Source: a virus. Taken from it: 64,000 nucleotides of DNA. How positions within the stretch are numbered: position 1 is the stretch's first letter; every line of letters begins with the position of its first letter. Below, piece by piece: positions 1 to 52,121 of the stretch. Under the pieces are notes generated by a model that was given only the letters and a program-made list of their open reading frames with translations, was not told where the DNA came from and searched no databases. The stretch is from the IMG/VR virus record IMGVR_UViG_3300046028_008994. One strand, written 5' to 3'. The position numbers and the translations under genes are program-made.

Positions 1-216
1 ATGACTGAGAATTTGATGTTAATGGGTTACAGAGGTAGTCAGTTCCTAGAAACAGGTGCTGTATTTGCTCCGTACATTCCGTTAATCATGACTCCGTTAG
101 TGTACGATCCAGAAACTTTCACTCCAAGAAAAGGTCTATTAACTCGTTACGCTAAGAAAATGTTAAGACCTGAATTCTACGCGAAAATCTATGTTAGTGG
201 TTTAAACACTATCTAA
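1..216 (+). CDS. Major capsid protein, C-terminal part (T4 gp23-like); gene begins upstream of the window
   Basis: GAVFAPYIPL...DPETFTPRKGLLTRYA matches the gp23-family C-terminus; followed by a strong terminator. Confidence 0.9.
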   Translation: MTENLMLMGYRGSQFLETGAVFAPYIPLIMTPLVYDPETFTPRKGLLTRYAKKMLRPEFYAKIYVSGLNTI

Positions 217-280: not shown

Positions 281-310
281 TTTGGCTAACTTAGATATCT
301 TTATTACATT
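281..310 (+). promoter_or_regulatory. Class E promoter, YTTGG-N19-TAYRTT (Bacteroidota -33/-7-like)
   Basis: TTTGG + 19 nt + TACATT; same spacing as 11 other copies. Confidence 0.7.
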
Positions 311-357
311 TATATAGGCCTATATAATATGTATAGATAAATAAAAATAGTTTTAAA

Positions 358-1272
358 ATGATAGAAACCCCTTCACAATTAAAGGTTCCAAGTTATGTAT
401 TAAACTTCCCCTTTTCTCTAAGCACTGAAAATCCAAACAATATTTGGATGGAAGAATTATCACCCGAAGATTTAAAAATTAATAAACCTAAAGCTTATAA
501 ACAGTTTATGGATTTATATAATTTTATAGCTGGTGGTTCTTTAGTTTATTTATTACCATCGTATGGTGATTATCAAGACCAAGTTTACGTGGCTAATGTG
601 GGAATGCAATTACCCCACATTAAAGACGATAATATTGTGTTATTATCCAATTTTACTTCCGAACCTAGACAAGGTGAAGAATTAGTAGCAAAACCGTTCT
701 TTAATTTAATGGGTTATAATACTCATCTATGTCCATTTAAATGGGAAGGTGAAGCAGATTTAAAATACATTGGTGGTAACACTTACATAGGTGGATACGG
801 TCAACGTTCAACTAAAGAAGCTTATGAGTGGATGGAACAAAACTTTGATATGAATATTATTAAAATAGAAATGGTTGAACCTTATTTATATCATTTAGAT
901 TGTTCAGTATTTCCATTAACTGATAAAAAAACATTAGTTTGTACTGAATTATTTACACCTGAAGAATTAGAAGAAATAGGAAAATATACAGAAATTATTG
1001 ATATTAGTGTTGATGATGCTTTTGGTGGATTAACAAATTCAGTAAGAATGGGAAATATGATTTTATGTGCATCTAACATTTCAGAATTAAAACGTACTGA
1101 TCCTTTATATGAGTTAGAAAAACATAAAATAGATACATTAGAAAGAATATGCGCTAATGAAGGTTTAGAACCAGTTATATTCAATTTATCAGAATATATG
1201 AAATCAGGTGCTATGTTATCATGCTGTGTAATGCACTTAAATTATGTTGATTATACTAAATCATTAATATAA
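358..1272 (+). CDS. Pentein-family guanidino-modifying enzyme, ArgZ/AgrE arginine-dihydrolase-like
   Basis: Motifs NxWM, DxVxxAN, RQGEE, EGxxD, GYGxRS, YHLD and LSExxKxGxxxSC in the order seen in the ArgZ N-terminal domain. Confidence 0.8.
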   Translation: MIETPSQLKVPSYVLNFPFSLSTENPNNIWMEELSPEDLKINKPKAYKQFMDLYNFIAGGSLVYLLPSYGDYQDQVYVANVGMQLPHIKDDNIVLLSNFTSEPRQGEELVAKPFFNLMGYNTHLCPFKWEGEADLKYIGGNTYIGGYGQRSTKEAYEWMEQNFDMNIIKIEMVEPYLYHLDCSVFPLTDKKTLVCTELFTPEELEEIGKYTEIIDISVDDAFGGLTNSVRMGNMILCASNISELKRTDPLYELEKHKIDTLERICANEGLEPVIFNLSEYMKSGAMLSCCVMHLNYVDYTKSLI

Positions 1273-1988
1273 TGGCTAAAACATTAAAAGACTGGATTAA
1301 TACAGATGTAAAAAAGGCTGAAAAAATGTCTATTGAACAATTATCAAATCAATTTTTCTTTAGAGATCCTTTAAGAACAATGTATATTGATAATGAACAT
1401 TTTTATTCACCAGCTGATGGAACTATCTTATATCAAAAAGTAATTAATGATCCTACTGAACCTATTGTGGAAATTAAAGGTATAAATTATACTTTACAAG
1501 ATGCAATGGGTGATAAAGATTATAACAAACCATCTTTAGTTGTTGGTATATTTATGTCATTTTATGATCCTCACATTATAAGAATTCCATATGGTGGTGT
1601 TATTGATTATGAATATTTAGAGGCAATAGAATCAACAAATAAGCCTATGTTAGCAACCGAAAAAGATATCTTTAACGGTAAAATTAACCCAGCAAATCTA
1701 GAATATCTTAAAAATAATGAAAGAATGAAAATAAAAATAAATTCACTTTCTTTAGAATATCAATATAATATGTGTTTAATAGCTGATGAAGATGTAAATG
1801 TTATATCTTCATTTAAAAAACAACAAGATATATGTTCACAAAACGATAGATTTGGGTTAGTGCGTTGGGGTAGTCAAACAGAATTAATATTACCTTTAGA
1901 TAAGCGCTTTGATTTTGAACTATGTCAAGAGGATCACACCCATGTTGAGGCTGGTTTGGATAAGTTAATAAAAATAAAATGGAAATAA
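1272..1988 (+). CDS. Pyruvoyl-dependent decarboxylase, phosphatidylserine decarboxylase family; no membrane anchor seen
   Basis: FFFRDP, SPADG, IFMSxxDxH and autocleavage motif RWGS; start overlaps the upstream stop (TAATG). Confidence 0.85.
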   Translation: MAKTLKDWINTDVKKAEKMSIEQLSNQFFFRDPLRTMYIDNEHFYSPADGTILYQKVINDPTEPIVEIKGINYTLQDAMGDKDYNKPSLVVGIFMSFYDPHIIRIPYGGVIDYEYLEAIESTNKPMLATEKDIFNGKINPANLEYLKNNERMKIKINSLSLEYQYNMCLIADEDVNVISSFKKQQDICSQNDRFGLVRWGSQTELILPLDKRFDFELCQEDHTHVEAGLDKLIKIKWK

Positions 1989-2557
1989 AAACGGTAAATA
2001 TTTATTTTTTACATAATGATGACAATATACCTTTTTATATTGGAAAAACAAACAATATTAAGGATAGAATAAATAATCATAAAAGAACATTTGGTAAAAA
2101 AACTATTTTAGAAATAATAGATGTTGTAGATATAAAAGAATGGAAATTTTGGGAAAAATATTGGATATCTCAATTTAAAATGTGGGGGTTTATTCTTTTA
2201 AATAAAAATAAAGGAGGAGGAGGACCGGATTTTCATGATGATGAAATTAAAAAATTAATAAGTAAAAATAAAAAAGTTACCGGATATAAAGATAATGAAT
2301 TAAGAAAACAAAATATTAGCAAATCAAATAAAGGAAAACCAAATTCTATGAAAGGAAAAAAACAACCACAAGAATATGTTATAAAACGAGCTGAATCTAA
2401 TAGAAAACCATGTTTGCAATTAAAAGATGGAATATTAATTAAAGAATGGTTAAGTAGTAGTGAAGCAAATGATGTTTATAACGGTGTTAATAACGTATTA
2501 AACGGTAGAGCTAAAACAGCTCATGGTTATGTATGGTTATGGAAAAATGATAAATAA
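1979..2557 (+). CDS. Free-standing GIY-YIG homing endonuclease with C-terminal NUMOD1-like domain
   Basis: IYFL...FYIGKT...R, Lys-rich linker, KTAHGYVW C-terminus. Confidence 0.8.
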   Translation: MEIKTVNIYFLHNDDNIPFYIGKTNNIKDRINNHKRTFGKKTILEIIDVVDIKEWKFWEKYWISQFKMWGFILLNKNKGGGGPDFHDDEIKKLISKNKKVTGYKDNELRKQNISKSNKGKPNSMKGKKQPQEYVIKRAESNRKPCLQLKDGILIKEWLSSSEANDVYNGVNNVLNGRAKTAHGYVWLWKNDK

Positions 2558-2581: not shown

Positions 2582-3268
2582 ATGAACCCACCAAAACATG
2601 ACGACGAGGTTTTTAAAAATAAAACCAAACCAAAAGGTCCAATCAAATTCAAAATCGAATTAAATTCAGAACAGAAAGAAGCCAAGCAGATAATTTTAGA
2701 TAATCCTGTAACACTTATAAAAGGTATGGCTGGTTCAGGTAAAACACTATTAGCTTGTCAAATAGCTTTAGATATGGTTTTTAAAAAAGAAATGGAAAAA
2801 ATCATTATTACAAGACCAACTGTATCTAAAGAAGAAATTGGTTTCTTACCAGGTGATTTAAAAGAAAAAATGGATCCTTGGTTAGCACCTATTTATTCTA
2901 ACTTATATCTTCTATATGATAAAATAAAAATAGATAAATTAGTAGCAGATGGTCAAATAGAAATTGTACCTTTTGCATTTATGAGAGGTAGAACGTTTCC
3001 TAAATCATTTGTTATTGTAGACGAATGTCAAAACATAACACACTCACAAACCGAAATGATGTTAGGTCGTTTAGGTAAAGGGGGTAAAATTGTATTTTGT
3101 GGTGATATTTCGCAAGTAGATCTAAAAAGTAAAAGAGATTCTGGTATTGGATTTTTTGATATTTTAGATGCAAGAGTAAAAGGTGTTAGAACAATCTCAT
3201 TAAAGAAAAATCATCGTCATGAAATAGTAGAAGAAATTCTTAGAATTTACGAAGAAGTTAGAGATTAA
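2582..3268 (+). CDS. phoH: PhoH-family ATPase
   Basis: GMAGSGKT, IGFLPGDLKEKMDPW, FMRGRTF, DECQN, GDISQVD. Confidence 0.95.
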   Translation: MNPPKHDDEVFKNKTKPKGPIKFKIELNSEQKEAKQIILDNPVTLIKGMAGSGKTLLACQIALDMVFKKEMEKIIITRPTVSKEEIGFLPGDLKEKMDPWLAPIYSNLYLLYDKIKIDKLVADGQIEIVPFAFMRGRTFPKSFVIVDECQNITHSQTEMMLGRLGKGGKIVFCGDISQVDLKSKRDSGIGFFDILDARVKGVRTISLKKNHRHEIVEEILRIYEEVRD

Positions 3269-3290
3269 ATATTTAGAATAATATGTGTGG

Positions 3291-3320
3291 AAGCCAATCG
3301 TTAGATTGGCTTTTTCCTTT
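3291..3320 (+). terminator. Intrinsic terminator
   Basis: AAGCCAATC/GATTGGCTT stem followed by a T-tract. Confidence 0.8.
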
Positions 3321-6776: not shown

Positions 6777-8387
6777 ATGGCAAAGATTAGATTTTTAGAT
6801 AATGTACCTATTGGAGTATTTGCAACAAATCCAAATGGCGGTGGTATATCAAATAGTGGTTCCTTTACCGGTTCATTTAGTGGATCATTTACCGGTTCAT
6901 TACAAGGGACAGCTAGTTGGGCCGAAAACTCAGTATCAGCATCATATTTTTCAGGAAGTATATCAAATGCAGTAAGCTCATCTTATGCTTTAAGTTCATC
7001 ATTTGCATTAACTGCATCATTTGCCTTAAATGCAGGAACAACTATAAACACAGGTTCATTTGTAACTACAAGTAGTTTTAATAATTTTACTTCATCTTAT
7101 AATACTGGATCATTCACAGGTTCATTTACAGGTAGTTTATCAGGAACAGCAAGTTTTTCTGTAAGTTCATCTCAATCAATAAGCTCATCTTACACTTTAA
7201 GTTCAAGTTTTGCTCTTAGTTCTTCATTTGCTATAAGTTCATCAAGAGCTGTAAGTTCATCTTTTAGTATTAGTAGTTCATATGCTGTAAGTTCATCATA
7301 CGCTTTAAGCGCTTCATTTGCTCCTACAAACACTACAGGTTCATTCACAGGTAGTTTTACAGGCTCATTACTTGGGACAGCATCATACGCTTCTAACGCT
7401 TTAAGTTCTTCATTTGCATTAACAGCTTCTTTTGCTCTTAATGCAGGAACAACTATAAATACTAGCTCATTTGTAACAACTTCTAGTTTTAATGCTTTTA
7501 CAAGCTCTTATAACACAGGATCATTTACAGGTTCATTTAATGGAATAGCAACAACAGCATCAAATACAATATTACAAAATCTAATTTTAACTAATCAAAC
7601 AGTTGGTGCTTTAACATCAGGAACAACATTACCTACAGGAACAGGATTAGAGAGTATATTAAGAACAATGCTTGTTACATATATTCCTCCTACTTTATCA
7701 TCTTTAGTAATGAGAAATGGAGGATCTAATATATCAACTGCTGCTAGAGATGTAGGAGATTCATTTACAGTAAATACAGCTTCATTTTCAGCAGCAGCTG
7801 ATAACCCAACAAGTATATTTCCTATAAGCTCATCATGGACAGGATCAGGAGCTGATATAGGAACACAAACATTTTATTTTGGAGATAATGTATTATCATC
7901 ATCTAATGTAAGAAGTATTGGAGGTAGTTATACAATTAATAGAGCTACTACAAACGGTACAGTTACTTTTACTGTAAATGGTAGACGGTCAGATACAGGA
8001 GCAGCTATTACAGGTACTACTACTTCAATATCATTTCAATGGAGAAATTATCTATCAGCATCACCAACCACCCCAACAGATAATGCTACAGCACAAACAG
8101 TAGTAAATGCTTCAGTTACTTCTACTTTAGATACAGATAGAGCATGGACTGCAACTTGTACAGCAGCTAATAATATATTAGGAAATTTTACTTATGTAAT
8201 ATATCCTGCTTCTTATGGAAACTTATCAAATATAATTCAAAATGGAGCATTATCTGTTTTAACAGCATTTACCAATTTAGGAGATTTTACTGTAACAAAT
8301 GCATTCGGTGCTTCCATTTTAGTAAGAATATATAAATCAAATTCAGACAAAGCTTTCGCAAGCGGAACAACACTAGCAATATCATAA
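6777..8387 (+). CDS. Ser/Thr-rich repetitive fibre-like protein
   Basis: GSFT and SSSFA/TASYA repeats in the N-terminal half, globular C-terminal half; class L motif. Confidence 0.7.
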   Translation: MAKIRFLDNVPIGVFATNPNGGGISNSGSFTGSFSGSFTGSLQGTASWAENSVSASYFSGSISNAVSSSYALSSSFALTASFALNAGTTINTGSFVTTSSFNNFTSSYNTGSFTGSFTGSLSGTASFSVSSSQSISSSYTLSSSFALSSSFAISSSRAVSSSFSISSSYAVSSSYALSASFAPTNTTGSFTGSFTGSLLGTASYASNALSSSFALTASFALNAGTTINTSSFVTTSSFNAFTSSYNTGSFTGSFNGIATTASNTILQNLILTNQTVGALTSGTTLPTGTGLESILRTMLVTYIPPTLSSLVMRNGGSNISTAARDVGDSFTVNTASFSAAADNPTSIFPISSSWTGSGADIGTQTFYFGDNVLSSSNVRSIGGSYTINRATTNGTVTFTVNGRRSDTGAAITGTTTSISFQWRNYLSASPTTPTDNATAQTVVNASVTSTLDTDRAWTATCTAANNILGNFTYVIYPASYGNLSNIIQNGALSVLTAFTNLGDFTVTNAFGASILVRIYKSNSDKAFASGTTLAIS

Positions 8388-8391
8388 CAAA

Positions 8392-11300
8392 ATGCCAATT
8401 TTTTACCCTGACATATTAGAACATAATAATCCCGATAGGGCTTTAGTTGATATAACTCAATTAAGAGGAAATAGTTACCCTTTAGGATCACTATCAGAAA
8501 CAGGTTCAATTCCTGATAATAAAAGAAAACTAGGAGCTATTATATTTGTATCTTCTTCACAAGAATTTTATGGTTTTTATGGTCAAACAACAGGATCATT
8601 AGATTGGGATAGTACATCAAATTGGAGAACCCTATCAACATTTTCCGGTTCTTACACAGGATCATTTTCCGGTTCTTTTATAGGAAATTTAACAGGTACA
8701 TCTTCTTATTCTACAAACGCTTTAAGTTCATCATTTGCATTAACAGCATCATTTGCCTTAAATGCAGGAACAACTATAAGCACAGGTTCATTCGTAACAA
8801 CTTCAAGCTTTAATTCATTTACTTCAAGTTATAACACAGGATCATTCACTGGTAGTTTTACCGGCTCATTACTTGGTACTTCAAGTTTTTCTATAAGTTC
8901 ATCTCAATCAATAAGTTCATCATTTGCATCAACCTCTTCATTACCATTACGTGGAATAATAACAGCTTCAGCAAATAATACAACCCTAACATTTACACGA
9001 GGAGATAACACTACATTTGATGTAACCGTTTCACAGTCTGGATCTGTATCAACAGCATCTTATGCTTTATTTGCAGAACAAGCTTTAAGTTCTTCATTTG
9101 CTTCAACTGCTTCATTTGCTCCAAGTTATACTCTATTAACAACATTTAATAATTTTACTAGTTCTTTTAGAACTGGATCTTATACAGGATCATTTACAGG
9201 TAGTTTATTAGGTACAGCAAGTTACGCAAATCAAGCCTTAAGTTCTTCATTTGCATCAACCTCTTTAATAGCAACTAGTTCATCATTTGCTTCAACAGCA
9301 TCTTATTTAAATACATTAAATCAAGATTTAACATTTAACGGTAATTTAACACTAAACGGAACAGCAAGTATAACTTATTTAAATATAAGTTATGAATCTG
9401 CTTCAGTAATATATTCATCAGGATCAAACCAATTTGGTGATGCAACTGATGATACACAAACCTTAATAGGAAGAACTATTGTAAGTGGTAGTTTTGAAGT
9501 AACAGGTAGTACTAATATTCCTTCAATAACAGGCTCATTATTAGGAACAGCATCATATGCTAATAATGCTTTAAGTTCATCTTATGCAACAACATCATCT
9601 TATGTGCTAAATGCTATAAGTGCAAGTTATGCATCTAGTTCAACAAGTGCGTCTTATGCGGCGACTGCTTCTTTCGTAACAACAGCTCAAACTGCATCTT
9701 ATGTATTACAAGCAGTAAGTAGTTCATTTGCTTCTACAGCCTCAAGAGCAACTAGTGCTTCATATGCTGCTACTGCTTCAATAGCAACAAGTTCATCTTA
9801 TACTTTAAGTTCATCATATGCCTTAAGTGCATCATTTGCTCCAATAAATACTACAGGTTCATTTACTGGATCGTTTACAGGAAGTTTATTAGGAACAGCT
9901 TCCTATTCTACAAATGCTTTAAGTTCTTCATTTGCATTAACTGCATCTTTTGCTCTTAATGCAGGAACAACTATTAACACAAGTTCATTTGTAACAACTT
10001 CAAGTTTTAATGCTTTTACAAGCTCATACAATACAGGTTCATTCACAGGATCCTTTACAGGTTCATTTTTAGGAACGTCATCATTTGCATTAAGTTCCTC
10101 AAGAGCTATAAGTTCATCATTTGCTACTACTTCATCATTTGCTGTTAGTAGTTCATATGCTCTTAGTGCATCATTTGCTCCAACTAACACTACAGGTTCA
10201 TTCACAGGCAGTTTTACAGGTTCATTGTTAGGAACAGCCTCTTATGCTAATAATGCTTTAAGTTCTTCTTTTGCAACAACTGCATCATTACCACTACGTG
10301 GTGTGATAACAGCTTCAGCTGCTAATACAACCATAACATTTACACGAGGAGATAACACTACATTTGATGTTACTGTATCTCAATCCGGATCTGTAGCAAC
10401 AGCATCTTATGCTTTATTTGCAGAACAAGCAAGATCATCTTCATATGCAGCAACAGCATCAGTATTATTAGGAAGTGTTGTTAGTTCAAGTTACGCTGCA
10501 ACAGCATCTATTGCTACAAGTGCTTCTTATGCTTTAAGTGCATCATTTGCTCCAACAAATACAACAGGCTCATTTACAGGCTCATTTACAGGTTCGTTTT
10601 TAGGAACTGCCTCTTATGCTACAAATGCTTTAAGTGCATCTTATGCTTTAAATGGTGGTGTAACTCAATTATTAGCAGGTCCTAATATTGTTTTATCACC
10701 AATAAGTGGTTTAGGACAGGTTACAATAACAGCTAATTTAAGTGGAAGTACTTCATTTAATACATCTACCGGTTCTTATGGTAGTTTTTACTCTACACAA
10801 ACACAGACAAATGTAGCAGGAACAGCTAGATCAATGTCTTTGAATGTGACTGACATTACTAATGGAGTGTCTATTTCAGGATCAACAAACCCCTTCAATA
10901 CCTATATTAAAGTACAAAACCCAGGAGTTTATGACATACAATTCTCAGCACAAGTAGATAAAACAGACAGTGGAACAGATGAGATATGGATATGGATTAG
11001 AAAAAATGGAACTGACATAAGTGATTCTGCTACATCTGTAGAATTACAAGGTAATGGTGCTCACTATGTCGCAGCATGGAATTTCTTTGTTAATGCTGCT
11101 GCAAATGACTACTTTCAATTAATGTGGTATTCACCTGATGCTAACGTACGATTACATGCAGAATCAGCATTTGGAGTAGTACCAGGCATACCTTCACTTA
11201 TTGTAACAGCAAATAGAGTAGATCAATTTTTATCAAACACAGGTTCATTTAGTGGTTCATTTAACGGTAATTTTACAGGTTCATTATTAGGTACAGCTTC

Positions 11301-12459
11301 TAATGCAATAAGTTCTTCTTATACATTAACTGCATCTATTGCTACTAGTGCGTCTTATGCTGCGACTGCTTCGTATGTAGTTAATGCTTTAACAGCATCA
11401 TATGTAGTAACTGCTCAAACAGCATCTTACGTACTAAACGCTGTTAGTTCATCATTTGCTTCAACAGCCTCTATAGCGACAAGTTCATCATTTGCTTTAA
11501 CAGCATCATTTGCTCCAACAAATACAACTGGATCATTTACAGGTTCATTTACTGGAAGTTTATTAGGTACTGCTTCTTATGCTACAAATGCTTTAAGTTC
11601 TTCATTTGCAACCACCTCATCTTTTAGTATAAGTTCTTCATTTGCAACATCTGCTTCATTTGCTCCAACAAACACTACAGGATCATTTACAGGTAGTTTT
11701 ACAGGTAGTTTATTAGGAACAGCTAGTTGGGCATCAAATGCTTTACAAGCAATTAGTTCATCATTTGCATCAACTGCTTCAATATCAACTAGTTCATCAT
11801 ATGCCTTAAGTAGTTCATATGCATTAAGTTCATCATTTGCTATTAGTAGTTCATATGCCTTAAGTGCATCATTTTCTCCAACAAACACAACAGGGTCTTT
11901 TACAGGCTCATTTACAGGCAGTTTATTAGGAACAGCCTCTTATGCTAATAATGCTTTAAGTTCTTCATTTGCTTTAACTGCTTCCTTTGCACCTGCTTAT
12001 ACAACTTTAACAGCGTTTAACAGTTTCACTGGATCATTTAGAACAGGATCATTTACAGGATCGTTTACAGGAAGTGTTTTAGGAACTTCATCGTTTGCTA
12101 CTCAAGCATTAAGTTCTTCATTTGCTTTAACATCCTCTATAGCAACAAGTTCTTCATTTGCTTTAAGTTCTTCATTTGCTTTAACAGCATCTTATGCTTT
12201 AAATGCAGGATCAGGAGGATTAACAACAAAATCAGGTAACGTAGCAAATACATCATTTACAGGAAATCCTAAAAGAGCAACTGTTACTTTTTCAACACCA
12301 TTTACAAACAATAATTATGCTATAACAATAACAGGAGAGGATTCAAGAACTTGGACTATAGATAGTAAAGTATCAGGAAGTTTTATAATAGATACAAACA
12401 GTAGTACTAATTTAGCTGGGACTACTTATTGGATTTCTGTAGCTTATGGTGAAAGTTAA
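8392..12459 (+). CDS. Large Ser/Thr-rich fibre protein with internal C1q/TNF-like domain and small C-terminal beta domain
   Basis: Dozens of TGSF/SSSFA/TASYA repeats; non-repetitive domain at about 10770-11220 (GVYDIQFSAQ, IWIRKNG, DYFQLMW). Confidence 0.75.
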   Translation: MPIFYPDILEHNNPDRALVDITQLRGNSYPLGSLSETGSIPDNKRKLGAIIFVSSSQEFYGFYGQTTGSLDWDSTSNWRTLSTFSGSYTGSFSGSFIGNLTGTSSYSTNALSSSFALTASFALNAGTTISTGSFVTTSSFNSFTSSYNTGSFTGSFTGSLLGTSSFSISSSQSISSSFASTSSLPLRGIITASANNTTLTFTRGDNTTFDVTVSQSGSVSTASYALFAEQALSSSFASTASFAPSYTLLTTFNNFTSSFRTGSYTGSFTGSLLGTASYANQALSSSFASTSLIATSSSFASTASYLNTLNQDLTFNGNLTLNGTASITYLNISYESASVIYSSGSNQFGDATDDTQTLIGRTIVSGSFEVTGSTNIPSITGSLLGTASYANNALSSSYATTSSYVLNAISASYASSSTSASYAATASFVTTAQTASYVLQAVSSSFASTASRATSASYAATASIATSSSYTLSSSYALSASFAPINTTGSFTGSFTGSLLGTASYSTNALSSSFALTASFALNAGTTINTSSFVTTSSFNAFTSSYNTGSFTGSFTGSFLGTSSFALSSSRAISSSFATTSSFAVSSSYALSASFAPTNTTGSFTGSFTGSLLGTASYANNALSSSFATTASLPLRGVITASAANTTITFTRGDNTTFDVTVSQSGSVATASYALFAEQARSSSYAATASVLLGSVVSSSYAATASIATSASYALSASFAPTNTTGSFTGSFTGSFLGTASYATNALSASYALNGGVTQLLAGPNIVLSPISGLGQVTITANLSGSTSFNTSTGSYGSFYSTQTQTNVAGTARSMSLNVTDITNGVSISGSTNPFNTYIKVQNPGVYDIQFSAQVDKTDSGTDEIWIWIRKNGTDISDSATSVELQGNGAHYVAAWNFFVNAAANDYFQLMWYSPDANVRLHAESAFGVVPGIPSLIVTANRVDQFLSNTGSFSGSFNGNFTGSLLGTASNAISSSYTLTASIATSASYAATASYVVNALTASYVVTAQTASYVLNAVSSSFASTASIATSSSFALTASFAPTNTTGSFTGSFTGSLLGTASYATNALSSSFATTSSFSISSSFATSASFAPTNTTGSFTGSFTGSLLGTASWASNALQAISSSFASTASISTSSSYALSSSYALSSSFAISSSYALSASFSPTNTTGSFTGSFTGSLLGTASYANNALSSSFALTASFAPAYTTLTAFNSFTGSFRTGSFTGSFTGSVLGTSSFATQALSSSFALTSSIATSSSFALSSSFALTASYALNAGSGGLTTKSGNVANTSFTGNPKRATVTFSTPFTNNNYAITITGEDSRTWTIDSKVSGSFIIDTNSSTNLAGTTYWISVAYGES

Positions 12460-44919: not shown

Positions 44920-45711
44920 ATGAAAATTAGTCACGAAGTTCCTTTATGTTTATTAGAGGATAGTTTATGGTTCAATGATTATCAATATTGTTTACCACAT
45001 TTATTAGATCAAAGCGAAGAATATAAAAATTTCTTTATTAGAGCTAAGCAAAATAATGTGTATATAATAATGGATAATTCACTTCACGAATTAGGTCATG
45101 CTTATGATAGTGAACGCTTATTATACTGGATTAACGAGTTAAAACCCAATGAATTTATTATTCCTGATGTATGGCAAGATATGAAAGGTTCAATCAACAA
45201 TGCTAGAGAATGGTCTAAAATTGACTTACCTGAGGAAGTTACTAAAGTAGCTGTAGTTCAAGCAATGAATTTAAGTGAAGCAATGACTTGCTATCAATAT
45301 TATAGAGATTTAGGTTATACAAAAATAGCATTTTCTTATGGTGCTTCTTATTATAGTGAATTAAATAATCATCCTAATCCAGATTTAGCTAAAGCTTTAG
45401 GTCGTATTTATATGATTAATCATTTATATAAAATTAAATTAATTAAAGACGATCACAGAGTACATTTATTAGGATGTCAGGTACCACAAGAATTTAGCTG
45501 GTATAATAATATGTCTTTTATTGAAACAATAGATACTTCTAATCCTATTATGGCAACATTAGATAATATAGAATATCATTCAACAGGTTTACAAACTAAA
45601 CCAAAAGCAAACATGAATAATAATTTTTATATTAACCCAGATGAAATTGACTATGAATTATTAAACCACAACATTTCCACATTTAAAGATTTAACAAATA
45701 CAATATATTAA
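44920..45711 (+). CDS. TGT-fold deazaguanine-handling enzyme (divergent DpdA-like)
   Basis: IMDNS, IIPD, AVVQ, HLLG and IDTS in TGT-barrel order; heads the que cluster. Confidence 0.7.
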   Translation: MKISHEVPLCLLEDSLWFNDYQYCLPHLLDQSEEYKNFFIRAKQNNVYIIMDNSLHELGHAYDSERLLYWINELKPNEFIIPDVWQDMKGSINNAREWSKIDLPEEVTKVAVVQAMNLSEAMTCYQYYRDLGYTKIAFSYGASYYSELNNHPNPDLAKALGRIYMINHLYKIKLIKDDHRVHLLGCQVPQEFSWYNNMSFIETIDTSNPIMATLDNIEYHSTGLQTKPKANMNNNFYINPDEIDYELLNHNISTFKDLTNTIY

Positions 45712-45712
45712 T

Positions 45713-45943
45713 ATGCAAGAACAATATCAATCACTTTTCGATTATCTAGGAAAACCAGCAGGTACAGATTTAGGTAAACAAGTTTTTACTGAATCTAAAA
45801 AACAAGGTATAAAAACAATAATAAGAGAAGTTAAAACAAAAAATTATGAAGGAAAAGTAATGGTTTATCCTACATCTTTTTTAGAAAATTACTTTAATCC
45901 TCAACCAACTCAACCAAATATTTTTGATGATCTTCTATTTTAA
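45713..45943 (+). CDS. Hypothetical protein
   Basis: ORF coupled to the upstream gene. Confidence 0.6.
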   Translation: MQEQYQSLFDYLGKPAGTDLGKQVFTESKKQGIKTIIREVKTKNYEGKVMVYPTSFLENYFNPQPTQPNIFDDLLF

Positions 45944-45973
45944 TTTGGAAAACAATAAAAATTTTAATATATT
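45944..45973 (+). promoter_or_regulatory. Class E promoter
   Basis: TTTGG-N19-TATATT. Confidence 0.75.
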
Positions 45974-45979
45974 ATAAAT

Positions 45980-46882
45980 ATGAATAAAAAATATGCTGTA
46001 CTCTCCTTAAGTGGAGGAATGGATTCAAGCACATTATTAATTAAACTCCTATCAGAAAACTATCAAGTAGTTGCACTCTCTTTTGATTATGGACAAAAAC
46101 ATAAAGTAGAATTAGAAAGAGCTACTGAATTGGTAAAATATATTAATAGTAGGAGCATTGGTACTAAAGGAGGATATGGAGGGTATGAATTAGTCAAACA
46201 TCAAATAATTACATTAGATGGTTTAGCACAATTACTTAATTCTTCATTAGTTGAAGGTGGTGCTGAAGTACCTGAAGGACATTACGCTGAAGAAAATATG
46301 AAGGATACTGTAGTACCTAATCGTAATAAAATATTTTCAAGTATTATTCAAGCAGTAGCTTTATCTATTTCTAATAAAAAAGAGGCGGAATGTGTTATTG
46401 CTTTAGGAGTACATAGTGGTGATCATTCTATTTATCCTGATTGCACAGAAGCATTTAGAAATGCGGATGAATATGCTTTTAAAATAGGAAATTGGGACTC
46501 AGAATTAGTAAATTATTACACACCATATATGGAAGGTAATAAATTTACAATCTTAGAAGATGGAGTTAAATGTTGTGATGAATTAGGTTTAGATTTTGAT
46601 GAAGTATATAAACGTACTAATACAAGTTATAAACCAATTAAATTAATAAAATCAGAAAAAAGATTTAAAGGAACAGAAGACGAAATAAATGTATTCTTTG
46701 AAGTATGGTACAGTGACTACAAATCAGCATCTTCAGTTGAACGTGTAGAAGCATTTATGAAATTAGGTCGTCCTGATCCTTGTGAATATGCTGACGAAAA
46801 TGGTCCTGTAGCTTGGGAACACGTAGTCTCTTACGTATGTTCAGTGCTAGAAAATCATGAGAAAGAAACGTCAAATAACTGA
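45980..46882 (+). CDS. queC: 7-cyano-7-deazaguanine synthase
   Basis: SGGMDS, FDYGQKH..E, VPNRN, YPDC. Confidence 0.92.
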   Translation: MNKKYAVLSLSGGMDSSTLLIKLLSENYQVVALSFDYGQKHKVELERATELVKYINSRSIGTKGGYGGYELVKHQIITLDGLAQLLNSSLVEGGAEVPEGHYAEENMKDTVVPNRNKIFSSIIQAVALSISNKKEAECVIALGVHSGDHSIYPDCTEAFRNADEYAFKIGNWDSELVNYYTPYMEGNKFTILEDGVKCCDELGLDFDEVYKRTNTSYKPIKLIKSEKRFKGTEDEINVFFEVWYSDYKSASSVERVEAFMKLGRPDPCEYADENGPVAWEHVVSYVCSVLENHEKETSNN

Positions 46883-47060
46883 TAGACCAATGTATGCTAT
46901 TATAAATAAAAACGGTGAAGTATTTGCTGGATTATTAAGTGGTTATCCACAATGGTCTTCTGATTGGGATAATGTTAAACTATTATTTCGAGAAAATACT
47001 GCTTTTATTTATAATACCAACCCAACAGAATACGAATTAATAAATGAAAGTGAATTATAA
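46857..47060 (+). CDS. Hypothetical protein
   Basis: Short ORF overlapping both neighbours. Confidence 0.45.
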   Translation: MRKKRQITDRPMYAIINKNGEVFAGLLSGYPQWSSDWDNVKLLFRENTAFIYNTNPTEYELINESEL

Positions 47061-47283
47061 ACAGCCCAAATTCGATCCACAAACTGGAGAAATTAACCCT
47101 TATATGATAGATTTAGAATTAAAAACAAACAAACAACCAGATCCAAGAAAACACCAGCTAGTAAGCTTTATCAAATCAGGCATCAGAATCTCAGGCTACA
47201 TTTGTTTGCCTTTTGATTTAACAATTGCTTGCCTTATCTTGGTTTTCTCAGAATTAGTTGGTATATTAGAAGAATTAGTATAA
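47044..47283 (+). CDS. Small membrane protein
   Basis: C-terminal hydrophobic hairpin ending ELVGILEELV. Confidence 0.6.
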   Translation: MKVNYKQPKFDPQTGEINPYMIDLELKTNKQPDPRKHQLVSFIKSGIRISGYICLPFDLTIACLILVFSELVGILEELV

Positions 47284-47320
47284 CATAGTGTGCTCCTTGA
47301 TTTTTAACATATTTATAATC

Positions 47321-47902
47321 ATGGAGCACACCAAAATATATTATTTACATTATGGAGATAATATTCCTTTTTATGTAGGGAAAACTAGAAATGAATATCA
47401 TAGATTATTTAACCATAAAAAAACGTTTGGTAAAAACACTGTGATGGAAATAATAGATGAAGTTTTAAATTGGAGAAAATGGGAAGTGTATTATATTGAA
47501 GAATTTAAAAAACAAGGATATATTCTTCAAAATAAAAATAAAGGTGGAGGTGGCTCTGAAAAATGGGAAGATAAATCAATCCAAAAACTAAAATCTCACC
47601 CTACAAGAGGTAAAAATATAAGTGAATCTCATAAAGGAAAACAAAAATCACATAAAGGAAAAAAATTTAAAGAAGAACATAAACAAAAAATAAAAGCAAC
47701 AAGAGATTTTCTCAAAAATAGGCCTAATACTTGGATTAATACTCCTGTATTACAATATGATTTAGAAGGAAATTTTATTAAAGAGTGGTCATCTCAATTA
47801 GAGGCTACTAAATATTTAAATAAAACAGGAGATGGAATAGGAGCTTGTTGTAGAGGAAGACAAAAAAAAGCTTACAATTACATTTGGAAATTTAAAAAAT
47901 AA
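47321..47902 (+). CDS. GIY-YIG homing endonuclease, paralogue of 1979..2557; start revised
   Basis: IYYL...FYVGKT, NHKKTFG, NKNKGGGG, NUMOD1-like C-terminus; class L motif at 47309. Confidence 0.8.
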   Translation: MEHTKIYYLHYGDNIPFYVGKTRNEYHRLFNHKKTFGKNTVMEIIDEVLNWRKWEVYYIEEFKKQGYILQNKNKGGGGSEKWEDKSIQKLKSHPTRGKNISESHKGKQKSHKGKKFKEEHKQKIKATRDFLKNRPNTWINTPVLQYDLEGNFIKEWSSQLEATKYLNKTGDGIGACCRGRQKKAYNYIWKFKK

Positions 47903-47912
47903 ATTATATATT
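47883..47912 (+). promoter_or_regulatory. Class E promoter embedded in the last codons of the endonuclease
   Basis: TTTGG (Ile-Trp codons)-N19-TATATT. Confidence 0.7.
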
Positions 47913-47918
47913 ACAAAC

Positions 47919-48164
47919 ATGAAAAAAATATTTTTATTTACAGCAGAGTGGTGTCCTGGCTGTAAAACATTAGAACCAACAATGGATAGAGTTAGAGATG
48001 CAGGAGTAACTGTTGAAAAAATTAACATTGATTATGAATCAGATAGAGCTAGAGCAGCTAATGTTATGAGTATTCCAACAGTAGTATTAGCTGAAAACGG
48101 TCAAGAAATCAAACGCTTCGTAGGAGCTAAAACATACGAACAAGTATTAGAATTTATTAAATAA
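47919..48164 (+). CDS. Thioredoxin
   Basis: FTAEWCPGC, SIPT. Confidence 0.92.
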   Translation: MKKIFLFTAEWCPGCKTLEPTMDRVRDAGVTVEKINIDYESDRARAANVMSIPTVVLAENGQEIKRFVGAKTYEQVLEFIK

Positions 48165-48631
48165 TGGGAAAATTTCAATCAACAAAATTATTTGACGGAT
48201 TCAGTTGTGTATTTCGTCAATGGAAAGCAGAAGGTACTCATTGCCAATTTTTACATGGTTATGGAGTATCATTTAGAGTATGGTTCGAAGGTGAATTAGA
48301 CGAACGTAATTGGGTATGGGATTTTGGAGGTATGAAACGTGCTAAAGGTACTATTGATGGTAAAAATCCTAAAGCATGGATGGATCATATGTTTGACCAT
48401 ACTGTTATAGCATCAATAGATGATCCTTACTTGGATAAATTTAAACAAATGGAAGTAGATGGTATAATCCAATTAAGAATAATTCCAGCAACAGGAGCAG
48501 AACAATTTGCAAAGTACATTTATGAAAAACTAAACACTTTTATTCAAGAAGAAACAAAAGGTAGAGTGAAAATAACAAAAGTAGAATTTATGGAGCATAG
48601 TAAAAATACAGCAATTTATACAGAAATATGA
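48164..48631 (+). CDS. queD: 6-carboxytetrahydropterin synthase (QueD-like)
   Basis: HCxxLHGY, WVWDFG, FDH, C-terminal EH..N.A.Y. Confidence 0.85.
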   Translation: MGKFQSTKLFDGFSCVFRQWKAEGTHCQFLHGYGVSFRVWFEGELDERNWVWDFGGMKRAKGTIDGKNPKAWMDHMFDHTVIASIDDPYLDKFKQMEVDGIIQLRIIPATGAEQFAKYIYEKLNTFIQEETKGRVKITKVEFMEHSKNTAIYTEI

Positions 48632-49410
48632 GTTTAGGAAGAATAACAGATTACGATAAAAAATTACCAATAGTAGAATTATACTATTGTGTACAAAGTG
48701 AAGGTTCAAGAGCAGGCTTTCCAACAGTAGCCGTTAGAACAACAGGCTGTACTCACAGATGTTGGTTTGGTGAAGGTGGTTGGTGTGATTCATGGTATAC
48801 AAGCATTCATCCTGAAAAAGGTGGATTTACATTTAATGATATTGTTAAAATGTATGATAATAGACCTGATATTACTGAAATGATGTTAACAGGTGGTTCT
48901 CCAACAATGCATCCTGATTTAGTTAATGAATTAACACATTTTGCTAATGAAAGAGGTATTGTAATTACAATTGAAACTGAAGGTTCACATTTTCTAGAAA
49001 CAGATTTTCCAATTGGCTTAATTTCATTATCACCTAAATTTACTAATAGTGTTCCTAAATTAGGAGTATTAACACCAAAAGGAGCTGTAGTAGATCAAAA
49101 GATGATTGATCAACATAATAAATTACGTTTAAATAAAGACGCAATGTGTAAAACAATTGATTATCATACTAATTACCATTTTAAACCAGTGTGTAATCCT
49201 GTAGAAATGCCTGAAATTTGGGAAGAAATTGAAGCATTTAGAGTAGAGATGAATATTCCTAAAAACAAAACATGGATTATGCCTCCAGGTGATAATAGAC
49301 AAGAGTTAATAAGAGTATATCCAATGGTATTTGATTTTTGTGCTGAACATGGATATAATTTTACAGGTAGAGAACATATTATTGCCTTTGATACTCGTCG
49401 TGGAGTTTGA
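48628..49410 (+). CDS. queE: 7-carboxy-7-deazaguanine synthase (radical SAM)
   Basis: QSEG...G, GCTHRC...WCDS, LTGG.P, IETEG, SPK. Confidence 0.9.
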   Translation: MSLGRITDYDKKLPIVELYYCVQSEGSRAGFPTVAVRTTGCTHRCWFGEGGWCDSWYTSIHPEKGGFTFNDIVKMYDNRPDITEMMLTGGSPTMHPDLVNELTHFANERGIVITIETEGSHFLETDFPIGLISLSPKFTNSVPKLGVLTPKGAVVDQKMIDQHNKLRLNKDAMCKTIDYHTNYHFKPVCNPVEMPEIWEEIEAFRVEMNIPKNKTWIMPPGDNRQELIRVYPMVFDFCAEHGYNFTGREHIIAFDTRRGV

Positions 49411-49455
49411 TTATAATACATAAAGAAGAGTCTATTTTCATATATTTATTAATAT

Positions 49456-50094
49456 ATGAGTAGATATAAACAAATATGTAATGAATGTAAAATACATTAT
49501 AAATCAAATGGATCAGGGAGTAAATATTGTTCTCCTGATTGTAGGCAAATAGCAAGAGCTAAAGATAGACAATTTACTTCCTGTTCCTGTTGTTTTAAAG
49601 ATGTTAGATATTTTCCTAACAGTGAACATAAAAATAAGAAAAATATTTTTTGTTCTAATAAATGTCAAGGAGAATGGATGAAAATTAATTCACAAAATCT
49701 TCAATTGGTTGAAAGAGCTAATAAGATGAGAGAAAGTTGGAATGAAAATGCTTGGAAAAAAGGAATTGAAACTAGAATAAAAAAAGGAAATATCATTGAT
49801 TGGGATAAAGCAGGATGGAAACAATATTGGAAAAGATGTGATTGGTTAACTAGAAAAATTAGAAAACAAATGTTAGAAAATTGGGATGGTTATGATTATA
49901 TTAGTAAAGAATATATTAAAGATAATTTAATTTTACATTATAGTCATGGTGATTATCCTACATTAGACCATATTAAACCCCGATCACAGTGTTTTAAAGA
50001 AGGTTTATCTCCATATGAAGCTACTAAACCAGAAAATTTAGCATGGACTACAAGAAAAAACAATAGTAAAAAATCACAGAAAAAATTAAAATAG
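49456..50094 (+). CDS. HNH-type endonuclease with N-terminal Cys/Zn motifs
   Basis: CxxC...YCSxxC twice; LDHIKP...ENL...NN.KK; class L motif. Confidence 0.7.
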   Translation: MSRYKQICNECKIHYKSNGSGSKYCSPDCRQIARAKDRQFTSCSCCFKDVRYFPNSEHKNKKNIFCSNKCQGEWMKINSQNLQLVERANKMRESWNENAWKKGIETRIKKGNIIDWDKAGWKQYWKRCDWLTRKIRKQMLENWDGYDYISKEYIKDNLILHYSHGDYPTLDHIKPRSQCFKEGLSPYEATKPENLAWTTRKNNSKKSQKKLK

Positions 50095-50097
50095 AAA

Positions 50098-50496
50098 ATG
50101 GTATTATTAACAACACATCCTGTTAAAAAATTAGATTTAGGTACTCATGGTAATCTATTTGGTGGTAAGTTACTCTCACTATTAGATTCAGCTGTAGCAG
50201 CTTATGCAATGGAGACATGCCATAGTAAAAATATGGTTACTGTTTCTATTGATAAATGTGAGTTTAAAAAACCTGCAAAAGAAGGTAATTTAGTAAAAAT
50301 ATATGCTGAATTAACTAAAATAGGAACTACATCAGCTCAATTTAATGTTGAGGCTAGAAATTATAATGTATTTACTGAAGAAGAAACTTGTATATTATCT
50401 ACTCATATGACTTTTGTTAGAATTGATGACGAAGGCGGACCAATTCCAATTTCAGAAACAGTTAGAAGAAAATTTAATTCTCCAGTTACAAAATAA
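50098..50496 (+). CDS. Hot-dog-fold acyl-CoA thioesterase (YciA-like)
   Basis: GNLFGGKLL..LD, VTVSID...FKKP, TFVRID. Confidence 0.88.
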   Translation: MVLLTTHPVKKLDLGTHGNLFGGKLLSLLDSAVAAYAMETCHSKNMVTVSIDKCEFKKPAKEGNLVKIYAELTKIGTTSAQFNVEARNYNVFTEEETCILSTHMTFVRIDDEGGPIPISETVRRKFNSPVTK

Positions 50497-50508
50497 TATT
50501 TATAATAT

Positions 50509-50748
50509 ATGAAAATAACGTATTTTTACCATAAAGGATGTCGTCAATGTAAAGACTTAGCTCCTATCATAAATGAATTTCAAGCTCCTCTTAACATTAA
50601 TTTGGTAGACACATATACTGATAGTATGTTAATGGAAGAAAATACAATTAACTGGGTTCCTACTCTTGTGATTGAAGATAAAAACGGAAAACACAAATTT
50701 GAAGGACCAGCTGAAGTTAAAGAAGTTTTGAGAAAATTAGTTTTATGA
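50509..50748 (+). CDS. Thioredoxin-like protein
   Basis: CRQC, WVPT. Confidence 0.8.
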   Translation: MKITYFYHKGCRQCKDLAPIINEFQAPLNINLVDTYTDSMLMEENTINWVPTLVIEDKNGKHKFEGPAEVKEVLRKLVL

Positions 50749-51248
50749 TAGTAGAATTCACAGAAAAAGAAATACAAGACAAAATTAAACAAATTGCTGA
50801 TTTTATTAATCAGAAACAACATAATAAACCTCCTGTGTTTATATGTGTATTAAACGGTGCTTTTATGTTTTTTACGGATTTAGTGAAACAAATAGGTAAA
50901 TGCGAAATAGACTTTATACGTGCGAAATCTTACGAAGGTACTACACAAAGTGAGATAAAAATTACTAAATCTTGTGAATTAGAACTAATAGATAGAGATG
51001 TTTATTTAGTAGATGATATCTATGATTCGGGAAATACAGTAAAAGCATTAATAAAACATTTATCAAACGAAAAAGCAAATTCAATAACACCAATTACATT
51101 ATTTAAAAAGTGGCATTCAAATCATCCTGAATTAATATATGGTTTTGAATTAACAGATGAACATTGGTTAATAGGTTATGGTTTAGATGCAAGTGATGGT
51201 ACTCAAAGAAACCTTACTTATATTAAAGGTATCCAACCAGGAGATTAA
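50745..51248 (+). CDS. hpt: Hypoxanthine/guanine phosphoribosyltransferase-like protein
   Basis: CVLNGAFMF, AKSY, LVDDIYDSGNT, GYGLD. Confidence 0.9.
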   Translation: MIVEFTEKEIQDKIKQIADFINQKQHNKPPVFICVLNGAFMFFTDLVKQIGKCEIDFIRAKSYEGTTQSEIKITKSCELELIDRDVYLVDDIYDSGNTVKALIKHLSNEKANSITPITLFKKWHSNHPELIYGFELTDEHWLIGYGLDASDGTQRNLTYIKGIQPGD

Positions 51249-51260
51249 TATTTATATTAA

Positions 51261-52091: not shown

Positions 52092-52121
52092 TTTGGTAAA
52101 ATAAAAAACAATTTATATATT
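52092..52121 (+). promoter_or_regulatory. Class E promoter
   Basis: TTTGG-N19-TATATT. Confidence 0.75.

What the first reader, a model, noticed from the sequence alone, without database searches (positions are those of the whole stretch)
358..1988. ArgZ-like arginine dihydrolase coupled to a soluble PSD-family decarboxylase after the capsid gene: candidate two-step arginine-to-putrescine pathway
Seen: two genes with a TAATG overlap, preceded by both promoter classes, directly after the capsid terminator. The first carries ArgZ-type pentein motifs, including the catalytic His/Asp/Cys. The second has PSD motifs (SPADG, RWGS) but no hydrophobic anchor. Known: ArgZ/AgrE convert Arg to ornithine; the PSD family includes an enzyme acting on a free amino acid (fungal PsiD); polyamines neutralise packaged T4-type DNA. 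Inference: the decarboxylase acts on ornithine or arginine rather than lipid, so the pair makes putrescine (via ornithine or agmatine) for DNA packaging or base modification. I know of no PSD-fold ornithine or arginine decarboxylase.
Basis: partly seen in the sequence, partly recalled or inferred. Interest (0 to 1): 0.82.

Follow-up and report, generated by a model that had tools for sequence, protein, structure and literature searches.

The report
Phage arginine-to-polyamine enzyme pair
Right behind its capsid gene, this phage carries two enzyme genes that travel together in phages and in many bacteria and most likely turn arginine into a positively charged amine such as putrescine, by a route that no paper I could search describes.

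Summary
Observation confirmed. 358-1272 is a pentein closest to the arginine dihydrolases ArgZ/AgrE (Z 34.7, rmsd 1.8), keeping all 13 aligned active-site positions (one Phe-to-Tyr). 1272-1988 is a PSD-fold pyruvoyl decarboxylase of its own clade, with an acidic loop where its pssA-linked lipid relatives have a basic one.

The two co-occur almost without exception: 78/80 and 33/33 viral loci, Fletcherviruses (unlinked), Bacteroides DAC phages, 71/80 bacterial loci, and the same 13 of 161 sampled actinobacterial genomes. A complex is predicted (0.61 vs control 0.00). In bacteria the pair usually precedes a MATE or ABC exporter, sometimes lies near polyamine genes, and sits inside four bleomycin-type clusters.

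Best reading: Arg to ornithine to putrescine, late in infection (0.45). Rivals are an agmatine-making decarboxylase (0.2) and oligo-guanidino polyamine synthesis (0.15). Lipid PSD and base modification are unlikely. No activity was measured.

Correction: a PSD-fold arginine decarboxylase is known (Aspergillus Ao-ADC1). This scan had already noted the cassette in other phage DNA (e1-3600690). The exporter, bleomycin and complex evidence was gathered here.

The parts
1..216 (+). 3' end of the major capsid protein gene (context; the full gene is 577 aa, genome 20335-22068)
   Evidence: PF07068 Gp23, phrog_138. Upstream of the pair in nearly all related aquatic phage loci.
245..273 (+). Intrinsic terminator of the capsid transcript
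   Evidence: 12-bp stem plus T tail
281..312 (+). Host-type (Bacteroidota-like) promoter motif TTTG-N20-TACATTTA; tentative
   Evidence: genome position 22133; present in 18/80 homologous upstream regions; consensus recalled from memory
327..335 (+). Phage late-type promoter motif ATATGTATA (variant of ATATTTATA found before structural genes)
   Evidence: 76/80 homologous upstream regions
358..1272 (+). Pentein (guanidino-modifying) enzyme, ArgZ/AgrE-like arginine dihydrolase subfamily. Predicted triad Cys289-His179-Glu130; Asp181; dihydrolase-type Asn80; Asn227; Arg104/Arg150 for the carboxylate and Asp74/Asn28 for the amine.
   Evidence: phrog_12759
1270..1274 (+). TAATG stop/start overlap (translational coupling)
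   Evidence: TAATG in 87 of 107 locus rows where both ends could be mapped (rows include duplicate contigs)
1272..1988 (+). PSD-fold pyruvoyl-dependent decarboxylase proenzyme of a separate clade. Asp49-His101-Ser201; predicted self-cleavage Gly200/Ser201; acidic loop Ala171-Asp-Glu-Asp174; no N-terminal hydrophobic helix.
   Evidence: phrog_12670
1979..2557 (+). GIY-YIG/NUMOD homing endonuclease; mobile insertion, not part of the module
   Evidence: Similar insertions lie between or after the pair in L007, L030 and L035 only.
2582..3268 (+). PhoH-like gene; a conserved neighbour in this phage group only
   Evidence: Not next to the pair in DAC19 or NCTC12673 and not among the recurring neighbour clusters of the bacterial loci.
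3289..3314 (+). Terminator closing the pentein-decarboxylase-endonuclease-PhoH unit

Best explanation
The two genes encode one enzyme module, probably a heterocomplex, that makes a cationic amine from arginine.

Step 1 (inferred from structure and residues): the pentein attacks the guanidino carbon of L-arginine with Cys289 and, like ArgZ, releases 2 NH3 + CO2 + L-ornithine.

Step 2 (inferred): the PSD-fold proenzyme cleaves itself at Gly200-Ser201, forms a pyruvoyl group and decarboxylates ornithine to putrescine. The acidic loop (Asp172, Asp174) holds the side-chain amine.

In the phage the unit is transcribed from a late-type motif behind the capsid gene and raises polyamine supply for DNA packaging and late gene expression (inferred). 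In bacteria the same pair makes an amine for export or for loading onto a natural product.

Shown here: folds, residues, clade, co-occurrence, contexts and a predicted interface. Not shown: any catalytic activity, the product, or its use.
For: Pentein: the best structural matches are ArgZ/AgrE (Z 34.4-34.7, rmsd 1.8, about 264 aligned). AstB follows at 27.8, DDAH 27.2, ADI 26.0, amidinotransferases 24.4 and agmatine deiminases about 20.6. All 13 aligned positions are kept and near-invariant in 87-89 phage and 69-71 bacterial sequences. Asn80 equals ArgZ Asn71, whose N71S mutant traps the intermediate (6JUZ title). His+2 is Asp, not the DDAH Lys, and Arg residues bind the substrate carboxylate in ADI/DDAH (PMC11659421); that Arg104/Arg150 are those residues is my mapping through AgrE Arg90/Arg139, recalled from the ArgZ papers. 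So the pentein should act on an amino acid, before decarboxylation.

Decarboxylase: the family lies on one side of a branch (93/89), sister to pssA-linked short PSDs (100/99). QIAGLVARRI is replaced by QIAD[YE]DV[DN], with Asp172 in 75/76 phage and 81/81 bacterial sequences. 26/34 bacterial carriers also have a separate, higher-scoring PSD. PSD-fold amino-acid decarboxylases exist (PsiD; Ao-ADC1).

Coupling. Predicted complex ipSAE 0.61 vs best control 0.00; that mark was reached by 58/80 solved and 2/110 mismatched pairs; runs agree in at least 90% of contacts; partner pLDDT 86; own alignments were used, so the counts hold only roughly.

Polyamine neighbours: SpeE-like with ArgB (2 loci) and PotD-like (7 loci, all Verrucomicrobiales).

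Precedent: Arg to Orn to putrescine by arginase + ODC in Klosneuvirus; no arginase found in phages (PMC9992855).
Against: No assay. NCBIfam scores are far below the ArgZ cut-off (70/450), with about 25% identity to ArgZ.

59 of the 72 bacterial loci with the pentein nearby also have a MATE (38) or ABC exporter (21) within 5 kb, and 8 have an agmatine-deiminase-like gene. Neither is needed for housekeeping putrescine.

About 10/34 carriers already have SpeA.

The pair sits in bleomycin-type clusters. The main products of the type cluster are A2 and B2 (PMC7017467), whose amines are, from memory, a sulfonium amine and agmatine rather than putrescine.

The only characterised PSD-fold basic-amino-acid decarboxylase acts on arginine.

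Six actinobacterial loci keep a catalytically dead pentein beside an intact decarboxylase, so the pentein may partly serve as a structural partner.
Confidence: 0.45

Rival explanations
1. The decarboxylase is an arginine decarboxylase like Ao-ADC1 and agmatine is the main product, exported or loaded on bleomycin as in B2. The pentein is a partner: it activates or stabilises the proenzyme, removes arginine in parallel, or hydrolyses agmatine to putrescine.
For: Ao-ADC1 precedent. Agmatine-deiminase-like neighbours in 8 loci. Both genes lie inside four bleomycin-type clusters. Dead penteins keep 8-9/9 conserved interface residues but only 3-7/11 catalytic ones. Phage pyruvoyl ADCs of another fold are known.
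Against: Ao-ADC1 is no closer than E. coli PSD or PsiD (Z 10.6 vs 13.4 and 11.2), so it is a parallel origin rather than an orthologue. The pentein is catalytically intact in all phage copies and keeps the carboxylate-binding arginines, which fits agmatine poorly.
Confidence: 0.2
2. The pair builds longer guanidino-polyamines. The pentein releases one NH3 from arginine and passes the ornithyl-amidino group to an amine (agmatine or putrescine) instead of water. The decarboxylase removes CO2 from arginine and from the condensed product, giving oligo-(4-guanidinobutyl) amines like the bleomycin B4/B6 termini (structures from memory). Bacteria export these toxic polycations; phages use them to condense DNA.
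For: It explains why neither gene occurs alone, the near-constant exporter, the deiminase-like neighbours, the predicted complex and the bleomycin-cluster location. The tallysomycin-type cluster markers of S. hindustanus lie on other contigs than its two pairs.
Against: No such pentein reaction is known to me. The active site matches a hydrolase residue for residue, with no visible extra acceptor motif. The B4/B6 structures and their link to these genes could not be checked in the papers searched.
Confidence: 0.15
3. The pair supplies an amine or amidino group for a DNA base modification.
For: This genome has a 7-deazaguanine pathway (QueC). In DAC19 the pair lies among replication and nucleotide-metabolism genes.
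Against: QueC is missing from the complete genomes of DAC19 and NCTC12673 and from a 90%-complete relative. The reported Fletchervirus modification is dI. Bacterial operons couple the pair to exporters, not to DNA enzymes.
Confidence: 0.05
4. The decarboxylase is an ordinary phosphatidylserine decarboxylase (membrane-lipid AMG), as annotated, and the pentein is an unrelated neighbour.
For: PF02666 above cut-off. The nearest solved structure and the sister clade are lipid PSDs. Phe94 is shared with canonical short PSDs.
Against: No pssA-like gene in any of the viral or bacterial family loci, against 17 canonical loci that have one. Charge-reversed loop and no N-terminal hydrophobic helix. A separate canonical PSD in 26/34 carriers. 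Strict pairing with the pentein.
Confidence: 0.04

Closest known systems
ArgZ (Sll1336) / AgrE (Alr4995) cyanobacterial arginine dihydrolase
   Same: Same fold (Z 34.7, rmsd 1.8) and 13 aligned active-site positions, including Asn71, Arg90, Arg139, His168, Asp170, Asn219 and Cys264.
   Different: About 25% identity; stand-alone 304 aa, with no ornithine cyclodeaminase fusion; an extra insertion before the last strand; partnered with a decarboxylase, so biosynthetic rather than nitrogen-remobilising (inferred); below the NCBIfam cut-off.
Ao-ADC1 (Aspergillus oryzae pyruvoyl arginine decarboxylase; PDB 9JER/9JF5) and fungal PsiD
   Same: PF02666 fold, Gly-Ser self-cleavage, His-assisted; they act on free amino acids, and Ao-ADC1 shows no PSD activity (PMC12904898).
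   Different: 483 aa with an N-terminal helical region vs 238 aa here; 13-15% identity; no closer than E. coli PSD; no pentein partner is mentioned in the review I read. Probably an independent origin.
Short pssA-linked bacterial PSDs (PRK05305 type) and E. coli Psd
   Same: Sister clade; Asp-His-Ser positions (E. coli D90/H144/S254 = D49/H101/S201), SPADG, NER and RFGS motifs.
   Different: Basic QIAGLVARRI loop replaced by an acidic one; N-terminal hydrophobic helix absent; helical insertion after NxPMLxxE; no pssA neighbour.
Virus-encoded putrescine routes (Klosneuvirus arginase + ODC; chlorovirus ADC-AIH-NCPAH; phage AdoMetDC-derived pyruvoyl ODC/ADC; Li et al. 2023, PMC9992855)
   Same: Viral arginine-to-polyamine conversion; works like arginase + ODC.
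   Different: Both enzyme folds differ. That survey does not mention dihydrolases, amidinotransferases or phosphatidylserine decarboxylase.

Membership tests
Arginine dihydrolase (ArgZ/AgrE; NF052232) | Pentein alpha/beta propeller with Cys-His-Glu triad | tested here: met
   Model pLDDT 94; Z 34.7 to 6JV0; C289/H179/E130 = C264/H168/E118
Arginine dihydrolase (ArgZ/AgrE; NF052232) | Asn at the ArgZ Asn71 position (Asp in ADI, DDAH and amidinotransferases, from memory) | tested here: met
   A79-N80 invariant in alignment A2; N80 = N71; 87/88 phage and 69/71 bacterial
Arginine dihydrolase (ArgZ/AgrE; NF052232) | Residues for the substrate alpha-carboxylate and alpha-amine (R90, R139, D65, N22) | tested here: met
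   R104, R150, D74, N28 conserved; their roles come from PMC11659421 for ADI/DDAH and from memory for ArgZ
Arginine dihydrolase (ArgZ/AgrE; NF052232) | Curated model cut-off (450 bits) | tested here: not met
   70 bits for the window protein, 99.5 for a bacterial member. So it is ArgZ-like, not filed as ArgZ.
Arginine dihydrolase (ArgZ/AgrE; NF052232) | Converts Arg to ornithine + CO2 + 2 NH3 | not testable with these tools
   Needs an assay
DDAH (dimethylargininase) | Lys two residues after the catalytic His | tested here: not met
   His179-Leu-Asp181 (feature from PMC11659421); 88/300 bits
PSD fold / pyruvoyl proenzymes (PF02666) | Pfam match and Asp-His-Ser with Gly-Ser cleavage site | tested here: met
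   75.7 bits vs cut-off 22; D49, H101, G200 and S201 invariant; Z 13.4 to E. coli PSD
Lipid phosphatidylserine decarboxylase (functional family) | NCBIfam equivalog cut-offs | tested here: not met
   Best 80/183 bits
Lipid phosphatidylserine decarboxylase (functional family) | N-terminal membrane-association region | tested here: inconclusive
   No hydrophobic helix (0.13 vs 1.1-2.4 in most of the sister clade), but E. coli PSD binds through amphipathic helices and scores 0.68; no coordinates were available to inspect the surface
Lipid phosphatidylserine decarboxylase (functional family) | Basic loop QIAGLVARR and pssA linkage of the short-type clade | tested here: not met
   Acidic QIAD[YE]DV[DN]; no pssA hit in family loci vs 17 canonical loci
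Ao-ADC1 clade (PSD-fold arginine decarboxylase) | Long fungal form with N-terminal helical region; at least 40% identity | tested here: not met
   238 aa; 13-15% structural identity
Ao-ADC1 clade (PSD-fold arginine decarboxylase) | Decarboxylates arginine, not PS | not testable with these tools
   Needs an assay
7-deazaguanine / hypermodified-base pathways | Co-occurrence with QueC | tested here: not met
   Not found in complete DAC19 and NCTC12673
7-deazaguanine / hypermodified-base pathways | 5-hmU kinase / transferase genes | tested here: inconclusive
   PF18723 gave no match anywhere, controls included

The most novel reading that the evidence does not exclude
The pentein and the PSD-fold decarboxylase form a heterocomplex that condenses and decarboxylates arginine into oligo-guanidino polyamines. 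Bacteria of many phyla export these, bleomycin-type clusters use them as terminal amines, and large phages make them late to condense their DNA. That would be a new pentein reaction and a new class of biological polycation pathway.
Probability: 0.15. Interest if true: 0.9.

Novelty: new variant of a known kind. Interest (0 to 1): 0.68.

Why it matters
If the best reading holds, this is a route from arginine to putrescine built from two folds not yet tied to polyamine synthesis together. It would add the PSD fold to the ornithine decarboxylases and fill the missing Arg-to-Orn step in phages, where no arginase was found (PMC9992855).

The module is common but mis-annotated as 'phosphatidylserine decarboxylase' plus 'DDAH/amidinotransferase': at least 1971 and 699 protein clusters. 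It includes Campylobacter biocontrol phages, gut Bacteroides phages and bacteria of at least eight phyla. Surveys that read phage psd genes as lipid AMGs (PMC11360552) may be misreading members of this clade.

It also gives a directly testable candidate for where the terminal amines of bleomycin-family drugs come from, and cultured phages in which to test whether phage-made polyamines matter for packaging.

Tried and rejected
- Sigma70 promoter scan: nothing upstream, counts at shuffle level.
- Phe94 replacing E. coli Tyr137 as a sign of a non-lipid substrate: rejected, because canonical short PSDs also have Phe.
- Idea that Fletcherviruses carry agmatidine DNA: no paper found.
- PhoH as part of the module: not next to the pair outside this phage group.
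- Downstream polyamine genes in phages: SpeE not found in 19 phage records; the HSS family id was not available; PF18723 was uninformative.
- 'The pair replaces canonical routes in bacteria': not supported. SpeA is in about 10/34 and AAT-fold decarboxylases in 6/34.
- AdoMetDC role next to SpeE: one of the two genomes has a normal speD; unresolved, unlikely.
- Scan of bacterial genomes with the window protein or the wide alignment failed; it worked with P0244.
- Plasmids: only distant hits (26-29%), annotated as ordinary PSDs.
- The ArgZ, AgrE and bleomycin-cluster papers were not held, so ArgZ residue roles and bleomycin amine structures rest partly on memory.
- Paper searches found no study of the pair. 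Subscription papers are not covered.
- ESM Atlas returned only PF02666 clusters.

Full report
Setting. The window lies in a complete 171.7-kb, 29% GC phage genome with terminal repeats. The finding covers two ORFs right after the major capsid gene and its terminator: 358-1272 (304 aa) and 1272-1988 (238 aa), joined by TAATG. A GIY-YIG endonuclease and PhoH follow, then a second terminator. Upstream lies ATATGTATA, a variant of a motif with 82 plus vs 27 minus copies, mostly non-coding and found before structural genes. It is kept in 76 of 80 homologous upstream regions. A weaker host-type TTTG...TAnnTTTA motif is also there (18/80). Late expression is therefore likely but was not measured.

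Gene 1. Pfam is silent; NCBIfam gives sub-threshold DDAH and arginine-dihydrolase hits. The only significant solved relatives by sequence are AgrE and ArgZ. The model (pLDDT 94) matches them at Z 34.4-34.7 and rmsd 1.8, well above AstB 27.8, DDAH 27.2, ADI 26.0, amidinotransferases 24.4 and agmatine deiminases about 20.6. Mapping to AgrE: N28=N22, W30=W24, D74=D65, Y77=F68, N80=N71, R104=R90, E130=E118, R150=R139, Y178=Y167, H179=H168, D181=D170, N227=N219, C289=C264. These are near-invariant in the family. PDB titles mark C264 and N71 as mechanistic. Asp rather than Lys at His+2 argues against DDAH, and Arg residues hold the substrate carboxylate in ADI and DDAH (PMC11659421). Inference: the substrate is arginine or a close alpha-amino acid, so the pentein acts before CO2 is lost.

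Gene 2. PF02666; model pLDDT 94. It matches E. coli PSD (Z 13.4), PsiD (11.2) and Aspergillus arginine decarboxylase Ao-ADC1 (10.6). D49, H101 and S201 align with E. coli D90, H144 and S254. In a 55-row tree the family falls on one side of a branch (93/89) and is sister to the short pssA-linked PSDs (100/99; midpoint root; several long branches flagged). Those PSDs carry QIAGLVARRI and mostly an N-terminal hydrophobic helix. The family has QIAD[YE]DV[DN] (Asp172 in 75/76 phage and 81/81 bacterial sequences), N-terminal hydropathy of at most 0.9, and no pssA neighbour. The loop aligns with E. coli Thr204, which lines an acyl-chain site (PMC7952604). 26 of 34 bacterial carriers have a separate, higher-scoring PSD. 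Inference: a cationic, soluble substrate.

Co-occurrence in phages. In IMG/VR, 78 of 80 pentein loci have the decarboxylase downstream (the other two end within about 1.1 kb), and 33 of 33 decarboxylase loci have the pentein upstream. The order is nearly always capsid-pentein-decarboxylase-PhoH; these are close relatives and not independent. Among cultured phages, 46 records have gene 1 and 45 have gene 2, all Campylobacter phages of about 130 kb (Fletchervirus for NCTC12673; genes about 40 kb apart) or Bacteroides DAC/SJC phages (adjacent). Two unrelated metagenomic loci also carry both.

Co-occurrence in bacteria. 80 loci from at least eight phyla carry the decarboxylase at 40-51% identity. 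71 have the pentein directly behind it, in reverse order. Five genomes with an apparently lone decarboxylase all have the pentein family elsewhere: three truly unlinked, two with a second pair. In an even sample of 161 genomes from one actinobacterial family, 13 have gene 1, 13 have gene 2, and they are the same 13; five of them were already known.

Complex. The two proteins were predicted together at ipSAE 0.61 (runs 0.58, 0.61, 0.61) against a best control of 0.00. That mark was reached by 58 of 80 solved complexes and 2 of 110 mismatched pairs, and only roughly applies because I supplied the alignments. Runs agree in at least 90% of contacts and partner pLDDT is 86. The interface pairs pentein strand 271-276 and helix 48-59 with decarboxylase 36-43. 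I know of no solved pentein-PSD complex. Six Allokutzneria and Streptoalloteichus loci keep a pentein that has lost Cys and/or His (3-7 of 11 catalytic residues) but retains 8-9 of 9 conserved interface residues. This supports a structural role but does not show binding.

Bacterial context. Within 5 kb: MATE transporter 38 loci, ABC exporter 21, agmatine-deiminase-like 8, PotD-like 7, NRPS 4, ArgB 3, SpeE-like 2. In one Streptomyces genome the decarboxylase precedes BlmXI/BlmX-like NRPS genes and the pentein follows bleomycin acetyltransferase (E 9e-128) and BlmA (E 3e-69), 57 kb away on the same contig. A second Streptomyces has the same arrangement over two contigs, and two Streptosporangium genomes have the adjacent pair at the head of such a cluster. 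The NCTC12673 record itself notes similarity to AF210249_12, which from memory is the bleomycin cluster. In S. hindustanus the BlmA- and BlmXI-like markers and the two pairs lie on different contigs. Bleomycins differ in their C-terminal amines (PMC7017467). All this points to amine synthesis from arginine with export or transfer, but does not name the amine.

Mechanism and odds. Arg to ornithine to putrescine in one complex is the simplest reading of both active sites (0.45). An agmatine-making decarboxylase with the pentein as partner (0.2) and oligo-guanidino polyamine synthesis (0.15) are the serious rivals. Base modification (0.05) is weakened by carriers without QueC. Lipid PSD gets 0.04. 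The remainder covers other cationic amino acids. Taken together, 'arginine-derived amine module' is about 0.8. A role in DNA packaging is inferred from late placement and from fusions of the decarboxylase to ADP-ribosyltransferase or Acb1 domains, one of them beside a portal gene.

Novelty. Viral polyamine routes and a PSD-fold ADC are known (PMC9992855, PMC12904898). I found no paper on this pair in the searchable library. This scan had reached the same cassette reading on another phage (e1-3600690), which is not independent evidence. Verdict: new variant of a known kind, interest 0.68.

Unpublished data. Loci L161, L191 and L205 come from G008, an unpublished genome. It contributes two of the 80 bacterial loci, one of the five genomes, one of the 13 and one row of alignment A2. 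No conclusion depends on it.

Noticed in passing
window 44920-52810 (genome 66772-74662): 7-deazaguanine DNA-modification cluster: QueC (PF06508 confirmed), QueD-, QueE- and FolE-like ORFs recognised by eye, a phosphoribosyltransferase, and a 263-aa ORF with no Pfam hit that may be the DpdA-type transglycosylase. QueC is present in 11 of 19 pair-carrying phage records.
   Followed up: partly
P0243, P0250, P0256, P0289 (metagenomic phage proteins; L118, L200, L201): The decarboxylase is fused to other domains: ADP-ribosyltransferase plus ParB-like (near a portal gene), Acb1 anti-CBASS phosphoesterase, and a Cys-rich N-terminal domain. This resembles virion-associated polyvalent proteins.
   Followed up: partly
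P0249, P0360: An intein with LAGLIDADG is inserted in the decarboxylase just before the catalytic His motif, a sign of a conserved, needed site.
   Followed up: no
L142, L155, L156, L158, L165, L172: Catalytically dead pentein copies are kept beside intact decarboxylases. In Streptoalloteichus the decarboxylase acidic loop is also changed (Asp174 to Ala).
   Followed up: partly
L242-L249 (G009 C10 88-146 kb; G050 C13), L199/L204, L194: Four bleomycin-family NRPS/PKS clusters in Streptomyces and Streptosporangium genomes, each carrying both genes.
   Followed up: partly
L148, L182, L187, L189, L196-L198: In Verrucomicrobiales the pair faces a MATE gene and is followed by a PotD-like binding protein and a large sensor-like protein, possibly an amine signalling circuit.
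   Followed up: no
window 6777-12459: Tail or fibre-like proteins with long SFTGSFTGS / SSSFA repeats (536 and 1355 aa).
   Followed up: no
genome about 85000-97400 (starts at window 63513): Block of ORFs that look by eye like glycosyltransferases, a DegT aminotransferase, split transketolase, an epimerase and methyltransferases.
   Followed up: no
genome-wide, e.g. before genome 56415, 104872, 113225, 123022, 129063: Early or replication genes carry TTGG...TATATTTA / TATGTTTA motifs resembling Bacteroidota host promoters, suggesting a Bacteroidota host.
   Followed up: partly
L001:11907-12881: Bacteroides phage DAC19 has a GMP reductase/IMPDH-like ORF and dUTPase-like genes (recognised by eye) around the pair.
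   Followed up: no
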